This document shows, in pieces, positions 51,001-57,000 of a stretch of DNA of 64,000 nt. Position numbers: made by a program. Positions within the stretch are counted from its first letter, which is position 1. Each line of letters begins with the position of its first letter. Origin of the DNA: Carcharhinus amblyrhynchos (lineage: Eukaryota); contig OZ336883.1 in the NCBI GenBank assembly GCA_965287045.1, forward strand, positions 16,802,001 through 16,866,000, given 5' to 3'.

Positions 51001-54000
51001 AGACCAGGTGATGGCAGGTTATGTGGAGGATGGTCAAAGAAGGAAAGAAGTGTTAATGGGGAAGGGTAATGCAGTGGCTGGGCAAAGTTGGAAGGGAATG
51101 TGTATGCTGTCAAGTGCCCTTTAAATATGGTGATCAGACCTTCAACTCCAGGAGATGGCGACTTCCTGCCTATCCCTGCTTGTGAGAATCAGCGAGCTTT
51201 CCATGAATGTCCCCATGCTTCTATAGATCTGTTCAAGTGGGAGCTAGATGTGGCCCTTGTTACTAAAGGGATCAAGAGCAGGAATGGGATACTGAAAATG
51301 CATGATCAGCCATGATCATATTGAATGGTGGTGCAGGCTCAAAGGGCCAAATGGCTTACCCCGCACCTATTTTTTATGTTTCTTAGTTAACACCCAAGTC
51401 CCCAGGCTTGTTGTCAGGCAGAAATCAAAGCAAGCCTTATGAATCCTCTCCCTATGTTCCTTTATGTTATCTTCAGTTAAAAAGACAGTTCAAAACATAA
51501 CAATTTCATAAACTTCATATTTATAACATTATGAAATAAAACAATGAGATAAAAAGTAATGACAACTTGGATTTCTATAGTGCTATTCACGTAGCAAAAC
51601 ATTCTTACACATTGCAGGCCATATTACAAGAGAAGGAGGGAGACAAATGGTGCCAATTAAGAGGTAGGTCTTAAGAAAGCTGGACCTTGCCTTTATTAAA
51701 CATCTTTAAGAACTTCAGACATGTCATAACCAATGAAGTATTTTTAAAATATAGGAGGGTGACTTCAATCCTAATAACCTGTGTTTCTAAATACATTTTG
51801 GTGCCACTGGAAAAATTCAGCCTGTTGTTTAGAGTCATATCAGGACAACAGAAGGATCCTTTGGACTCTTTCTATAGTGTGTTGGTGTTTATTGTGCCCA
51901 CCTGAGAGAGCGAATGGGGCCTCAGTTTAACATTTCATTGAAATGCCACACACACAGCCCATGCCCACCTGCCACCTTCCCCCCACCCACCCATCCACTA
52001 CCCCCCTCCCCCCCTCAACATCCCTTTATCAGTATTGCACTGGAACATCACAACAGACATCACACCTAGGAAACGGAAGATGTACTTCACAAAGAAAATC
52101 TCCAGCAAACAGTGACATGGATTGCAGGAATAGAGAACAATGGAAAACAGTTGCATGGGAACAGTGCATACTCTTGGGATTCGGGTGACTTTGTTGCTAC
52201 AGTCACCATTAAGGCAAATAAATTTTAGCTGATATTTGAAGTTACAGCGGAAGGATTGCACAATAAGATTTCGAGTTTTAAGACTTTTACTGTAACAAAC
52301 AAACTAAAAGCAACTTTGTTCAACCACTAATTATGAGGGTTTAAACGTGCATTTTCAAGTCATACATGCTCATTAAAGGCTATCTCATCCAAATTAAGCT
52401 TCCCCTCCAAACTAAGTTACCCACTAGCAAGAAATTAGAATGTTCACTTCTAACCTCTGCACAAAGTTTTCTCCTTGCCCCTCTGCAAATATGGAGTTAT
52501 TCTTATTTGATATAGAATCATAGAATTTCTACAGTACAGAAGGAGGCCATTCAGGCCATTGAGCCTGCAGCGACAATAATTCCAACCAGTCCCAATCCAC
52601 ATAACCCCAAATATTTGCCCTTTGATTTGACTTGATTTATTATGGTCACATGTATTGGGATACTGTGAAAAGTATTGTTTCATGTGGGTTATACAGACAA
52701 AACATAACATTCACAGAGTACAGTAAGAAGTCTTACAACACCACGATAAAGTTCAACAGGTTTATTTGGTAGCATGAATTTTTGGAGCACTGCCCCTTCA
52801 TCAGGTGAGTGAGGTGAAGGAGCAGTGCTCCAAAAGCTCATGCTACTAAATAAAACTGTTGGACTTTAATCTGGTGTTGTGAGACTACTTACTGTGCCTA
52901 CCCTAGTCCAATGCCAGCAACTCCACACCATTCACAGAGATTGGAGAGATGGAAAGAAGAGAGCACAGAAATAGCTGACTCCAAGGGACAATTTAGAATG
53001 GCTAATCAACCTAACTTGCACATCTTTGGTTTGTGGGAGGAAACTGGAGCACCCTGAGGAAATCCACGCAGACACGGAGAGAATGTACAAACTCCACACA
53101 GACAGTGACCCGAGGCCAGATTTGAACCTGAATCCTTGGTGCTGTGAGGCAGTAGTGCGAACCACAGTGCCGCTGCACTGCCTTGAAAATAATTTTGCAA
53201 TTTACAAACCTCTATATCAGATGATCTGAGTCTATTTAAGTTAAGCTTATTTATTAGTGTCATAAGTAGGTTTACATTGCAATGAAGTGAATGAAATTGC
53301 CACACTCTGGTGCCTGTTTGGGTAAAGTGAGGGAGAATTTAGCATGGCCGATGCACCTTTTGGACTGTGAGAGGAAAGATGTGTGGTTTAGGTTGATTGG
53401 CTATGCTAATTGACCCTAGCGTTAGGGGGATTAACAGGGTAAATATGTGGGGTTAGGGGATAGGGCCTGGGTGGGATTGCAGTCAGTGCTGACTTGATGG
53501 TCCGAATGGCTTCCTTCTGCACTGTAATAATGCTATGATTCTATAGATTCTATGAAACAGGAGCACCTGGAGGAAACACACACAGACACAGAGAAAACGT
53601 GCAGGCTCCTGACAGACAGTGACACAAGCTGGGAATCGATCCTGGGTCCTTGACGCTGTGAGGCAGCAGAGCTAACCAGTATGACAATGCGTTGTGATCA
53701 ATGCACCTTGAAATTCTCAGCCATTGTTTGATGTCTCAAGACGTTGAAACTTCACGAGCTGTGCTGAATCATTTACAGTGACATAATATTAAAGACAGTA
53801 AAAAGTCTGACAACACCAGGTTTTAGTCCAACCTATTTATTTGATAATATACTCGCAAGCTTTCGGGTTAGCCCCTTCGTCAGGTGACCTGACGAAGGGG
53901 CTAACCCGAAAGCTTGCGAGTATATTATCAAATAAATAGGTTGGACTAAAACCTGGTGTTGTCAGACTTTTTACTGTGTTTACGCCAGTCCAATGCCGGC

Positions 54001-57000
54001 ATACCCACATCATAATATTAAAGACCCAGTATGCAAATCATGTCTCGTTGATCATTGAGATATTTCCTGAAAATACTTCATTTCAATTTTAAATGGAGCA
54101 AGCAAGCAAGCGCATACAATTGATTCTTTTCAGTTGCCTGTTCAAAGATAACAGATAAATTACTCAAAAGACAGCACTGCAATATCTCAAGCCTTTTTGT
54201 TTTGCCATAAAGTCTCTCTCCATTTCAGAAGGAACATCGTGCAAATTATCTTCTTCTGATCCGCGAATGTTTGTTCAGCAGAGAGCAGTTGGAAAGAATT
54301 TACAAGGCAGACTAAGTTAAAAATGTGAATCGGGATTTGTATTGATGGAAGAGAGAAATAAGTTGAAGCAGTCGTAGCAAGAAAGATCTCTGGATGTTAA
54401 CTGTTTTATCTGCCAGGTTTACTGATGTATTACCCAAGGACAGTGATAAAGTCAGAGTTATGTTCACATCGTAAGGGAGACAGTTACTCTATTAATACTA
54501 TAGCTGACTGTCGGGTGACAAATCCCGAGAAAACCTGCTGGAATCAGATTTATGGCCATAATCAATACTTTCCAGTCTAGGTACAAGTGGCGAGGGATGA
54601 GTATAAATCTGATTGTCAATTTGAGTAGATTCCACCTTGAGCTGTAGACCTGAACTTCAGCTTCAGATAATATCTGTCTTGCTTTTTTTAAAGAAAAAGA
54701 AATCTGGGGAATGGAGATCAGAGCTGAGCAATGTGCTTATTTTGTTATTGAACTGGAGAAAGAAATAACAATTACAGTGGCTCATGTACAGCCTTCGGAT
54801 TCGAAGTCAGACTCGTTCCTTCAGCTGCACTTTTTACCAGAAAGCTTCTATATTGATCGGTTTAGTTTCTCTTATCAAGTGGAGCTACAGACACAACTGA
54901 CAGCTAGACTTTCAGTTGGAACTTCCATTGACAGCCGTCCAAACTCAGACCATGTCTATTCTCCCCCTTCTGTTCATGGTGGTAATGATTGTGAAGGTTG
55001 GCAGTAAACCAGGTATCCTTTATATTTCCTCACAAATTATTTCCGATGTGTAGATTGATCAATATATTGAAATGACGGTACGTGGCTCCATCCGTGATAT
55101 CTGATGCTTCTGAACTTGGGGTCCAAGTCAGCAACATTTCCACTTCTCTGAAGCAGGCACAAGATTAGGGATACAGAAAGGCCATTGGGTTCCTCCAACA
55201 AGCTGATCATTAATGTTCATGATTTTATTTGATTTGGTTTATTACTGTATTAGTGTACAGTGAAAAATATTGTTTCTTGTGCTGTACAGCCAAAACATAC
55301 TGTTAATAGAGTACATAGGAGAGAAGGAAAGTAGAGCATACAGAATACAGTGTTACAGTAATAGCTAGAGTGTAAGGCAAGATCAGCTTAATATAAGTAG
55401 GTCCATTCAAAAGGCAGCAGGGAAGAAGCTGTCGTTGAATCGGTTGGTATGAGACCTCAGAGTTCTGCATCTTTTTCACTGAAGAAGAAGGTGGAAGAGA
55501 GTACTTTAGGGTTACATGGTGTCCTTCATTAAGCTGGCTGCTTTCCTGAGGCAGTGGGAAGTGTAGACAGAGTCAATGGATTGGGGGCTGGTTTGTGTGA
55601 TGGACTGGGCTTCATAACCTTTTGTGGTTTTTTTGTGGTTTTGGACAGAGCAGGAGCCAAACCAAGCTGTGATATAATCAGAAAGTAAGCTTTCTATGAT
55701 GCATTTGTAAAAATCGGTGTCATTGTTAGGAAATAGAGAGTTTTAAATATTTTATGTTTGATTTATGTCTGCCAAGCATAACCTATAGCTTTAAGCTTTA
55801 GTTTCAGTTTTAAAAGTTGTCTAAGTCTATGGTTTCTTCAGATACCTGCATTTTCAATGAGGGTTTTATAACACGCAAGAAAACAGAGTATAAAAAAACT
55901 GGACTGTTGCCTAGCAACCAGGAGCCCACAGATACATCAAAAAATAGTTTCAGTTTTGTTGGTGATTATGAGCGGAGGTGCAGGGAGCAAGTCTCTTCTT
56001 TCAGGACATGATGGTAGAATGCACATTGCAGGTCCAAAACTGGAGAACAGAAAAATGTCCGTGCAGTTGGAAGCAGGATTCTACATAAACTGGAGGTGGA
56101 TCCTTGTTATAGATAGCCCAGAGAAAGCTTTGGTTGAGAGAAGATTCCTTGCTGTGCTCATCCAGAGCTGTCATTCAAAATCTTTGTATGGAAAACAGAG
56201 TTCCAGTGAGATCAGTTGGGCTCACAGTGTGACATGCTTTGGGGGGAATTGATGAGAAATCTGCAAAATTTGTTTGGAGTGGCATCTGACACTTGGTTTC
56301 AGAGTATGGGCTGTCTGACTACATTTTGCCTATTGGTTTACGTGGACTGTATACTTGCTGTGAACATTACAGTATAAGATAGATTTTGTAACTTGTGTGC
56401 GGCACGGTGGCACAGTAGTTAGCACTGCTGCCTCACAGTGCCAGGGACCAACGTTCGAATCCCAGCTCGGGTCACTGTTTGTGTGGCGTTTGCACATTCT
56501 CCCTGTGTCTGCATGGGTTTCCTCTGGGTGCACTGGTTTCCTCTCACAGTCTGAAAGACGTGCTGGTTAGATGCATTGATCTGAACAGGCTCTGAAGTGT
56601 GGCGACTCGGGGAATTTCACTGCAGTGTTAATGTAAGCCTTACTTGTGACTCATAATAATAATTTATCCTTACAAATCTCTAAAGGTGTGGTTGAGGTGA
56701 AGGAGTAGCATATTATAGTTCATTTATTCTTGTTTAATGAATGTTTTATTATTTTGTTACAATTTGCCGGCAGTCTTGTGACTGTTCGGCAGTCACCATT
56801 CACATATCTAAGCAAAAAATTAGAAGTGAGGATCTATCAAGCTGGGTTTCAGAATTTTTCTGTGACCTACACCACATGGCGGTTCATTAAAGTGGCTCGT
56901 ATCACCTTCTCTACACAGCAACTTGGGATGGGAAAAGCTGGTCCAGCCAGAGACAAACATGTCATATAAAAGAATTGATATCTGACACTGCATTAAATGA

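What the first reader, a model, noticed from the sequence alone, without database searches (positions are those of the whole stretch)
53782..54025. Perfect 183-bp palindrome with intact 15-bp TSD: a very recent insertion
Seen: 91-bp arms with zero mismatches around a single G (53886), CpGs retained, and an exact TSD CATAATATTAAAGAC. The inversion point lies 2 nt upstream of the CTGACGA core. Helix II (GGG/CCC) differs from the 10860 copy, and helix I has an A-C mismatch (TCAC/GCGA). Inference: the family is currently or recently active, or the arms are homogenised by gene conversion. A near-spacerless palindrome this long can extrude a cruciform and produce a perfect dsRNA hairpin.
Basis: partly seen in the sequence, partly recalled or inferred. 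Interest (0 to 1): 0.7.

Follow-up and report, generated by a model that had tools for sequence, protein, structure and literature searches.

The report
Head-to-head Penelope-type retroelement insertion
The perfect palindrome is real, but it is the usual scar left when a Penelope-like retroelement inserts two truncated copies of its end head to head, here in a young and still unmutated copy.

Summary
There is a perfect 183-bp palindrome at 53795-53977 (91-nt arms around G53886), flanked by an exact 15-bp target-site duplication.

It is not a symmetric element. The 214-bp insert (53797-54010) is two 5'-truncated copies of the same ~90-125-nt element end, placed head to head. Only the right copy carries a 33-35-nt 3' "tail".

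Four other copies of the family lie in the window. Three have the same build: an inverted tail-less arm, a tail of 32-41 nt on one side only, and duplications of 14, 14 and 11 bp. Their inner junctions differ. Their arm identities are 98/99, 60/67 and 72/82. The fifth is a solo truncated copy.

The build also includes a minimal hammerhead motif, no poly(A), no ORF and AT-rich targets. Together this is the published insertion signature of Penelope-like elements.

The palindrome was therefore made at insertion. Its perfection shows relative youth, but the insertion is not shown to be very recent. The upper bound is about 7-29 My under assumed rates.

The hammerhead in this copy is cut off in helix I. 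The family is non-coding and no partner element is in the window. This is a known kind of feature, and a good specimen of it.

The parts
53782..53796 (.). Left copy of the 15-bp target-site duplication CATAATATTAAAGAC. Its last 2 nt (AC) also extend the palindrome (junction microhomology).
53797..53885 (-). Tail-less inverted arm, 89 nt. It is a 5'-truncated copy of the element end, sense on the minus strand. It starts 33-35 nt inside the element's 3' end and stops 2-3 nt upstream of the hammerhead core.
53886..53886 (.). Centre base G. It marks the junction of the two copies, with 0-1 nt of overlap.
53887..54010 (+). Tailed arm, 124 nt. It is a 5'-truncated copy of the same element end running to the family's 3' terminus ...CCCACAT, with no poly(A).
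53978..54010 (+). One-sided 3' 'tail': 33 nt, or 35 nt if the 2-nt microhomology is counted. It is absent from the inverted arm.
   Evidence: literature
54011..54025 (.). Right copy of the target-site duplication.
53889..53920 (+). Minimal hammerhead motif relic. Components: CTGACGA 53889-95; extra A 53896; helix II GGG/CCC within 53897-53907; GAAA 53908-11; GCTT 53912-15 (predicted cut after 53915); helix I 3' strand 53916-20. The helix I 5' strand is lost at the inversion point.
   Evidence: features
53852..53883 (-). Mirror image of the same hammerhead relic on the minus strand (core 53877-53883).
10846..11226 (+). Copy B of the family. Layout: duplication TGTATAAAAACCTG (10846-59 and 11213-26); tail-less inverted arm 10860-10949; 124-nt filler 10950-11073; tailed arm 11074-11212. 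Arms match 98/99. Hammerhead boxes and a 5-bp helix I are intact on both arms.
14356..14580 (-). Copy C, in opposite orientation. Layout: duplication AATATT[A/G]TTCCAAG (13 of 14 identical); tailed arm 14370-14499; tail-less arm 14500-14566. Arms match 60/67. The core is mutated to CTAATGA.
52708..52939 (+). Copy D. Layout: duplication CATTCACAGAG (11 of 11 identical); tail-less inverted arm from 52719; tailed arm to 52928. Arms match 72/82. GAAA is mutated to AAAA on both arms.
1919..2004 (-). Copy E. A solo 5'-truncated copy of ~71 nt with the tail and no inverted partner. It is flanked by TATCTGT (7-8 bp).

Best explanation
The palindrome is the product of a single retrotransposition event of a short, non-coding element that carries a hammerhead motif and is mobilised in the manner of Penelope-like elements (PLEs).

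Shown:
- A staggered break gave the 15-bp duplication.
- The two arms are antisense-primed copies of the same ~90-nt stretch of the element.
- One arm starts at the element's 3' terminus. The other starts 33-35 nt further in.

Inferred, by analogy with the Anolis Poseidon enzyme:
- Both 3' ends of the break were extended by reverse transcription of the element RNA.
- The bottom strand started at the outer start site, giving the right arm with its 33-35-nt tail.
- The top strand started at the inner start site, giving the left, inverted, tail-less arm.
- Both cDNAs stopped 2-3 nt upstream of the CUGACGA core. They were joined end to end with 0-1 nt of overlap, and each then served as template for the other strand.

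The arms are identical because they were copied from the same template at the same moment and have not yet mutated. This copy was dead on arrival: it has no ORF, and its ribozyme lacks the 5' strand of helix I.

The confidence given (0.8) is for the PLE-type head-to-head insertion as such. Within it I favour two-strand priming over snap-back by roughly 2 to 1.
For: 1. The architecture repeats. nhmmer found 9 arm matches at 5 loci. Four of the 5 loci are head-to-head pairs and 1 is a solo 5'-truncated copy.
2. In 4 of 4 pairs only one arm has the 3' tail, of 35(33), 39(37), 41 and 32 nt. Published PLE tails are 30-40 bp and often lie at one end only. Adineta vaga has a 31-bp tail and an inverted pLTR that is 37 bp shorter.
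3. The inner junction differs in 4 of 4 pairs, so the inversion is made at each insertion and is not inherited.
4. Duplications vary in length (15, 14, 14, 11 and 7-8 bp) and are AT-rich, 62-80% against 57% for the window. There is no poly(A).
5. [quoted passage not shown] Helix II keeps pairing through two-sided changes: A-U at position 2 in B, and A-U at position 3 in D_long with G.U in D_short.
6. The purified Anolis PLE protein cleaves and extends both strands. It starts reverse transcription at two adjacent internal sites, and the sequence between them is the tail. The start site is not homologous to the cut DNA. Here the outer-junction microhomology is only 2, 1, 1 and 0 nt.
7. Arm identity falls with apparent age: 100%, 99%, 90% and 88%.
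Against: - No PLE reverse transcriptase or GIY-YIG gene is in the window. Of 208 stop-to-stop ORFs of 70 aa or more, the only RT fragment (42139-42435) has relatives with AP-endonuclease domains, which marks it as a LINE. The partner is therefore unidentified.
- No head-to-tail (pLTR) arrangement is seen in the window.
- Rfam finds no hammerhead at its gathering scores or at E up to 10.
- Helix II is 3-5 bp, not the 6-8 bp described for PLE min-HHRs.
- In this copy both cDNAs stop within 1-2 nt of each other. Two independent cDNAs would do that only if both ran off one RNA 5' end. A single snapped-back cDNA gives it automatically.
- Only five copies could be studied. The rest of the genome and the raw reads were not available.
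Confidence: 0.8

Rival explanations
1. Same PLE-type event, but the palindrome arose by self-priming (snap-back). One cDNA, primed at the outer site, turned back on itself 2-3 nt upstream of the core and copied itself. The returning strand ended ~35 nt short of the start and was joined to the other target end through the AC/GT microhomology.
For: - The centre is perfectly symmetric around one base, effectively a 3-nt TGA loop.
- In copy C the tailed arm extends 22 nt beyond the symmetric part, as a snap-back loop would.
- Arkhipova et al. 2013 infer self-priming from palindromes at inverted PLE junctions.
Against: - In copy D the tail-less arm reaches 11 nt further in than the tailed arm. Snap-back from the tailed cDNA cannot give this.
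- Snap-back offers no reason why the returning strand should stop 32-41 nt before the end in 4 of 4 copies. Two start sites do explain it.
- In vitro both strands are extended.
Confidence: 0.25
2. An old insertion whose arms are kept identical by gene conversion between them.
For: Inverted repeats this close together can convert each other (general knowledge). Perfect arms alone cannot exclude it.
Against: - Copies C and D have the same build, and their arms have drifted to 60/67 and 72/82.
- The duplication, which conversion would not protect, is also perfect at 15/15.
- All 6 CpGs in the arms are intact.
Confidence: 0.05
3. A LINE-mobilised SINE with an L1-style twin-priming inversion.
For: It has target-site duplications of variable length and 5' truncation. 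A LINE RT fragment lies in the window.
Against: - Twin priming, as I recall it from Ostertag and Kazazian 2001 (not read here), inverts a different, more 5' part of the RNA. Here both arms are the same stretch.
- There is no poly(A) or microsatellite tail.
- The family's end matches nothing else in the window, including the LINE remnant.
Confidence: 0.05
4. A DNA transposon of the MITE or foldback type with long terminal inverted repeats.
For: It shows long inverted repeats flanked by direct repeats.
Against: - The ends are asymmetric, with a tail on one side only in 4 of 4 copies.
- Duplication length varies from 7 to 15 bp.
- A solo 5'-truncated copy with its own duplication exists (copy E).
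- The inner junctions differ between copies.
Confidence: 0.03
5. An assembly or read fold-back artefact.
For: Palindromes can be created by chimeric long reads. Reads could not be inspected.
Against: - The palindrome sits inside an exact duplication with a one-sided tail.
- Three mutated copies in the same window repeat this build. An artefact would not reproduce that.
Confidence: 0.03

Closest known systems
Head-to-head (inverted pLTR) insertions of Penelope-like elements, for example Pen2a_Av of Adineta vaga and the Naiad/Penelope arrangements (Arkhipova et al. 2013, PMC3846280, passages read; Craig et al. 2021, PMC8557442, passages read)
   Same: - An inverted 5'-truncated copy abuts the unit.
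- A 30-40-bp tail lies on one side only, and the inverted copy is shorter by about the tail's length.
- There are short target-site duplications.
- Palindromes occur at the inverted junction.
- A hammerhead lies in the repeat.
   Different: - Here there is no ORF and no direct pLTR pair. The whole insert is just two ~90-125-nt ends, and in copy A nothing lies between them.
- The duplications are longer (11-15 bp against 8-10 bp).
- The sequence after the ribozyme is not the start of an ORF: every frame of each of the 5 copies holds a stop.
Poseidon element PAc of Anolis carolinensis, studied in vitro (Frangieh et al. 2024, PMC11167929; abstract and whole main text read)
   Same: - Two reverse-transcription start sites lie a tail's length apart, and both target strands are extended.
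- The start site is not homologous to the target.
- The target is AT-rich.
- The hammerhead lies about 60-95 nt upstream of the start sites. Here the predicted cut is after 53915 and the starts are at about 53977 and 54010.
   Different: - No enzyme is known for this family.
- The host is different.
Minimal hammerheads of PLEs (Cervera and de la Pena 2014, PMC4209133; abstract, Results, Discussion and Methods read)
   Same: - CUGAnGA and GAAA boxes.
- An unpaired nucleotide before helix II.
- A G10.1-C11.1 pair.
- A palindromic AGCU in place of helix III, which implies action as a dimer.
- A short helix I.
- 'Dual min-HHRs ... in opposite strands' 100-700 bp apart are reported for Schistosoma.
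   Different: - Helix II is 3-5 bp here against 6-8 bp.
- In copy A the two motifs are 5 nt apart and lack helix I.
- Cleavage was not tested.
Non-LTR retrozymes and hammerhead SINE-like elements such as Sm-alpha (Li et al. 2026 preprint, abstract and passages read; review PMC6765202, passages read)
   Same: Short non-coding elements that carry a hammerhead and are thought to be mobilised by PLEs. They are reported in the one cartilaginous fish sampled.
   Different: Retrozymes are defined by tandem head-to-tail repeats, and none is seen here. No internal promoter has been identified.
L1 twin-priming inversions (recalled from Ostertag and Kazazian 2001; not read here)
   Same: The second target strand primes on the element RNA and gives an inverted 5' segment within one duplication.
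   Different: There the two segments are different parts of the RNA. Here they are the same part, which gives a true palindrome.

Membership tests
Penelope-like element (PLE) insertion signature | An inverted 5'-truncated copy adjacent to the unit, head to head | tested here: met
   4 of 5 family loci in the window. Feature taken.
Penelope-like element (PLE) insertion signature | A 30-40-bp 'tail' present at one end only | tested here: met
   4 of 4 paired copies: 35(33), 39(37), 41 and 32 nt. Feature taken.
Penelope-like element (PLE) insertion signature | Target-site duplication of variable length, AT-rich target, no poly(A) | tested here: met
   Duplications are 15, 14, 14, 11 and 7-8 bp. 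Their AT content is 62-80% against 57% for the window (n = 5). Ends are ...CCACAT or ...CCACAC.
Penelope-like element (PLE) insertion signature | A single ORF with a telomerase-like RT and a GIY-YIG endonuclease | tested here: not met
   No ORF runs through the arms. Among 208 ORFs of 70 aa or more in the window, Pfam finds 1 RVT_1 fragment and no GIY-YIG. That fragment's relatives carry AP-endonuclease domains. This is therefore at best a non-autonomous or extremely truncated member.
Penelope-like element (PLE) insertion signature | Direct partial tandems (pseudo-LTRs) | tested here: not met
   None of the 5 loci is head to tail. Five loci is a small sample.
PLE-type minimal hammerhead (min-HHR) | Catalytic boxes CUGAnGA and GAAA | tested here: met
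   Both boxes are intact in 4 of 7 arms parsed (both arms of A and of B). C has CTAATGA. D has AAAA, and its tailed arm is cut inside the core.
PLE-type minimal hammerhead (min-HHR) | [quoted passage not shown] | tested here: met
   An extra A and G...C closing helix II occur in 7 of 7 arms. Positions 15.2/16.2 are G/C in 6 arms and A/T in 1. Features taken.
PLE-type minimal hammerhead (min-HHR) | Helix I of 4-5 bp | tested here: inconclusive
   Pairs formed out of 5: B 5, C 4, A minus-strand arm 3, A plus-strand arm 2, D 1-2. In copy A the 5' strand is lost at the inversion.
PLE-type minimal hammerhead (min-HHR) | A long helix II (6-8 bp) | tested here: not met
   3 bp in A, 4 bp in B, 5 bp in C and D.
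PLE-type minimal hammerhead (min-HHR) | Self-cleavage, as a dimer | not testable with these tools
   This needs an in-vitro transcription and cleavage assay.
Rfam hammerhead families | A match to a curated covariance model | tested here: not met
   There were no matches of any family at gathering scores over the window. No hammerhead appeared among 12 matches at E up to 10 in 53750-54050. There were 0 matches in 11060-11220. The best-scoring matches were miRNA-precursor (hairpin) models, far below their gathering scores (MIR405, 47 against 102 bits).
L1-type twin priming | The inverted segment is a different, more 5' part of the template than the direct segment | tested here: not met
   The arms are the same stretch, 89/89 identical.
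MITE / foldback DNA transposon | Symmetric termini and a duplication of fixed length | tested here: not met
   A one-sided tail occurs in 4 of 4 copies. Duplications range from 7 to 15 bp.
Non-LTR retrozyme | Tandem head-to-tail repeats, each with a hammerhead | tested here: not met
   There are no tandem copies among the 5 loci. The genome-wide state is unknown.

The most novel reading that the evidence does not exclude
The family may be a very short (~135-140 nt), recently active, non-coding parasite of a Penelope-like element in a cartilaginous fish. Its template RNA would begin only 5-16 nt upstream of the hammerhead core.

On this reading, copy A is an unmutated record of the integration chemistry. 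A dimeric enzyme primed on both target strands at the two alternative start sites. Both cDNAs ran off the same RNA 5' end and were joined by an end-to-end template jump.

That would explain why the inner ends cluster at the ribozyme in 4 of 4 copies. It would also make such perfect palindromes natural reporters of how PLEs complete integration. They could be sources of hairpin RNA as well.
Probability: 0.2. Interest if true: 0.45.

Novelty: new member of a known kind. Interest (0 to 1): 0.27.

Why it matters
Little is at stake for general biology. The structure is the expected scar of a known class of retroelement.

It has value in three ways:
- It is an unusually clean specimen. An unmutated junction shows to the base where the two cDNAs start (33-35 nt apart) and where they meet (0-1 nt overlap). 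These are the integration steps that the in-vitro work describes as yet to be validated experimentally.
- It warns annotators that perfect palindromes of this kind are real insertions and not assembly errors.
- A family with 5 copies in 64 kb, 2 of them nearly unmutated, may still be mobile in this host.

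Tried and rejected
**Searches that found nothing useful**
- Rfam found no hammerhead at gathering scores or at E up to 10. The best-scoring matches were to miRNA-precursor (hairpin) models (MIR405, mir-1460), far below threshold, and I reject them as family assignments.
- Pfam on all 208 stop-to-stop ORFs of 70 aa or more (29 + 150 + 29) found no PLE protein.
- The one RT fragment was searched. Its relatives carry AP-endonuclease domains, so it is a LINE. Named hits include Hypanus sabinus, Callorhinchus milii and Leucoraja erinacea, but also birds and a turtle. 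The host is probably a cartilaginous fish, but this is not established.
- A search for an empty paralogous site used the two flanks separately. The left flank 53400-53690 is abundant SINE-like repeat. The insertion site and the right flank are unique in the window.
- The 124-nt filler of copy B has no other copy in the window.

**Analyses replaced**
- The self-alignment of whole copies double-counts pairs. It was replaced by arm-against-arm alignment.
- The MAFFT alignment A1 does not keep helix II in register between copies. I therefore did not run the count of structure pairs on it, and parsed each arm by script instead.

**Literature limits**
- No paper describing this family in cartilaginous fishes turned up in searches.
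- Repbase and Dfam could not be consulted, so the family may well be catalogued.
- Lunse et al. 2016 is not held and is known to me only from a reference list.
- The supplement of Cervera and de la Pena 2014 is a PDF and could not be read. The supplements of the 2026 preprint are closed. Either could list this motif family.

**Resources not available**
- No eukaryotic nucleotide collection was available.
- The genome-contig collection holds bacteria and archaea only and was not searched.

**Rejected readings** (see the rival explanations): MITE or foldback element, L1-type twin priming, gene conversion, and assembly artefact.

Full report
**1. The observation**

- A script that walks outward from G53886 finds 91 complementary positions on each side before the first mismatch (53795-53977, 183 bp).
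- The repeat finder extends the arms to 96 nt with one mismatch.
- No other perfect palindrome with arms of 12 nt or more and a 0-1-nt centre exists in the 64-kb window.
- CATAATATTAAAGAC occurs exactly twice in the window, at 53782-53796 and 54011-54025, against 0.01 expected.
- Each arm holds 3 CpG.
- CTGACGA starts 2 nt from the centre base on either strand.

Two details matter for the interpretation.
- The last two bases of the left duplication (AC) are also the outermost two bases of the palindrome. The inserted arms are therefore 89 nt.
- The insert is not symmetric. On the right, 33-35 nt (53976/53978-54010, ending ...CCCACAT) lie between the palindrome and the duplication. On the left nothing does.

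**2. The family in the window**

A blastn search with the right arm plus tail, followed by an nhmmer profile built from four copies, finds nine arm matches at five loci.

| Copy | Coordinates | Duplication | Arm identity | Tail |
|---|---|---|---|---|
| A (this finding) | 53782-54025 | 15/15 | 89/89 | 35 nt (33) |
| B | 10846-11226 | 14/14 | 98/99 | 39 nt (37) |
| C (opposite strand) | 14356-14580 | 13/14 | 60/67 | 41 nt |
| D | 52708-52939 | 11/11 | 72/82 | 32 nt |
| E (solo, 5'-truncated, ~71 nt) | 1919-2004 | 7-8 bp | none | present |

In brackets: A's tail if the 2-nt microhomology is counted with the arm, and B's tail measured to ...CACAT.

- In all four paired copies the build is the same: duplication, then an inverted arm lacking the 3' terminal 32-41 nt, then a tailed arm running to ...CCACAT or ...CCACAC, then the duplication.
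- The inner ends of the arms differ in every copy. Relative to the CUGAnGA core they lie at -2/-3 in A and at -12/-12 in B, which also has a 124-nt filler between the arms. They lie at -5/+20 in C and at -7/+4 in D.
- A and B belong to one young subfamily. They show 4 differences in the 103 nt after helix II, 3 of them at CpG-type sites, yet their junctions differ. The inversion is therefore created at each insertion and is not inherited from a hairpin-shaped master.
- Every frame of each of the 5 copies examined holds a stop codon, and none has a poly(A) end.

**3. What kind of element this is**

The combination matches the published insertion signature of Penelope-like elements.
- Craig et al. 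[quoted passage not shown] - Arkhipova et al. [quoted passage not shown] They also describe 8-10-bp duplications and palindromes at the inverted junction.
- Frangieh et al. 2024 (abstract and main text) worked with the purified Poseidon protein of Anolis. It cleaves and extends both target strands and starts reverse transcription at two adjacent internal sites of the RNA. These start sites are not homologous to the cut DNA, and the tail is the sequence between them. The enzyme prefers AT-rich targets.
- Here the two arms of each copy start 32-41 nt apart on the template. Microhomology between the primer end and the template is only 2, 1, 1 and 0 nt. The duplications are 62-80% AT against 57% for the window.

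**4. The ribozyme motif**

Rfam gives no hammerhead hit at gathering scores or at E up to 10. The best-scoring matches over the palindrome are miRNA-precursor hairpin models, far below threshold.

Parsed by hand and script, the motif has the features that Cervera and de la Pena 2014 list for PLE minimal hammerheads (Results and Discussion):
- CUGAnGA and GAAA boxes.
- An extra nucleotide (A) between positions 9 and 10.1, in 7 of 7 arms.
- G10.1-C11.1, in 7 of 7 arms.
- A palindromic AGCU where helix III would be.
- A short helix I: 5 of 5 pairs in B and 4 of 5 in C.

Helix II is shorter than described (3-5 bp against 6-8). It keeps pairing through two-sided changes, with A-U at position 2 in B, and A-U at position 3 in D with a G.U intermediate in its other arm.

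Only copy B has an intact motif. C carries G5A and D carries G12A. In A the 5' strand of helix I was lost at the inversion point (3 of 5 and 2 of 5 pairs), helix II is down to 3 bp, and position 1.2 is C. In a transcript of the whole insert the motif would in any case be buried in a hairpin of -176 kcal/mol.

The same paper notes dual min-HHRs on opposite strands 100-700 bp apart in Schistosoma. That is the same phenomenon at larger spacing.

**5. Mechanism**

Shown by the sequence:
- The top strand reads duplication, then antisense copy. The bottom strand does the same from the other side. Both 3' ends of a 15-bp staggered break therefore carry antisense cDNA.
- One cDNA starts at the terminus and the other starts 33-35 nt further in.

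Inferred from the Anolis biochemistry:
- Both ends were extended by the element's reverse transcriptase from the two alternative start sites.

At the centre, the top-strand cDNA can be templated through 53886-53887 and the bottom-strand cDNA through 53887. The two meet with 0-1 nt of overlap. That fits an end-to-end template jump or blunt joining.

The main rival within the PLE framework is self-priming of a single cDNA, which Arkhipova et al. proposed.
- For it: the perfect centre of A, and the 22-nt one-sided extension in C.
- Against it: copy D, where the tail-less arm reaches further in than the tailed one.
- Also against it: it gives no reason why the returning strand should stop 32-41 nt short in 4 of 4 copies.

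I put the PLE-type reading at about 0.8. Within it, I favour two-strand priming over snap-back by roughly 2 to 1.

**6. Age**

Arm identity falls from 100% and 99% (A, B) to 90% and 88% (C, D). The arms therefore drift apart with time, and gene conversion is not needed.

Zero differences in 104 independent paired positions (89 arm plus 15 duplication) gives a 95% upper bound of 29, 14 or 7 My. These correspond to 0.5, 1 or 2 x 10^-9 substitutions per site per year. The rates are generic assumptions of mine and are not measured for this host.

"Young relative to the other copies" is supported. "Very recent" and "currently active" are not shown.

One caution comes from a CpG-type site in the tail. 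It reads TG in A and CA in B, which are the two decay products of one CG. The young pair therefore either came from different source copies or has already begun to decay.

**7. Context and limits**

- The window has no N. I do not take it for human.
- It is dense in SINE-like repeats. There are 49 further matches to the 290 nt left of the site.
- Of 208 ORFs of 70 aa or more, Pfam names only a LINE-type RT fragment and a truncated H2B-like ORF. No autonomous PLE is present.
- Named relatives of the RT fragment include a stingray, a chimaera and a skate, but also birds and a turtle. I also recall, from no call, that the flanking SINE resembles shark SINEs. The host is probably a cartilaginous fish, but this is not established.
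- PLEs are reported in the whale shark (one passage). Hammerhead retrozymes are reported in the one chondrichthyan sampled by Li et al. 2026 (passages).
- No eukaryotic DNA collection, Repbase, Dfam or raw reads were available. Family size, partner element, polymorphism and expression all stay open.

**8. Verdict**

The finding is real and correctly described. Its explanation is ordinary for this class of retroelement. It is a new member, or at least a newly examined copy, of a known kind. Its interest lies mainly in being an unmutated junction specimen.

Noticed in passing
window 10950-11073 (inside copy B): A 124-nt filler lies between the two arms. It begins with a second antisense copy of the ~16 nt that precede the hammerhead core (GTGAATGGAGAACTCT). 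It has no other copy in the window. It may be a template jump to a second, longer RNA.
   Followed up: partly
copies A-D: 53886; 10949/11074; 14499/14500; about 52811: The inner ends of both arms lie within -12 to +20 nt of the hammerhead core in 4 of 4 head-to-head copies. This suggests either a short template RNA that starts just upstream of the ribozyme or a reverse-transcriptase stop at helix II.
   Followed up: partly
window 53400-53690 and about 49 other places: SINE-like repeats are very abundant. There are 49 further blastn matches in the 64-kb window to the 290 nt left of the insertion, falling in two query blocks (1-155 and 155-290). The block at ~53630-53690 looks tRNA-derived.
   Followed up: no
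window 42139-42435 (+): A decayed reverse-transcriptase fragment (Pfam RVT_1, E 4.5e-09). Its longer relatives carry AP-endonuclease domains, so it is a LINE remnant and not the partner of the palindromic family.
   Followed up: yes
window 59384-59683 (-): A histone-fold ORF (Pfam Histone, E 6.8e-11). It reads like H2B but ends at a stop after ...AQHNKW, well before a full H2B would. It is probably a pseudogene or a divergent variant.
   Followed up: partly
tail CpG-type site: 53997-53998 (A), 11197-11198 (B), and the matching site in C, D and E: The same dinucleotide reads TG in A, D and E and CA in B and C. These are the two decay products of one ancestral CG.
   Followed up: no
window 24001-26000 and 60001-64000: There is a strong excess of G over C (GC skew 0.26-0.31 in 2-kb windows). 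The cause was not examined.
   Followed up: no
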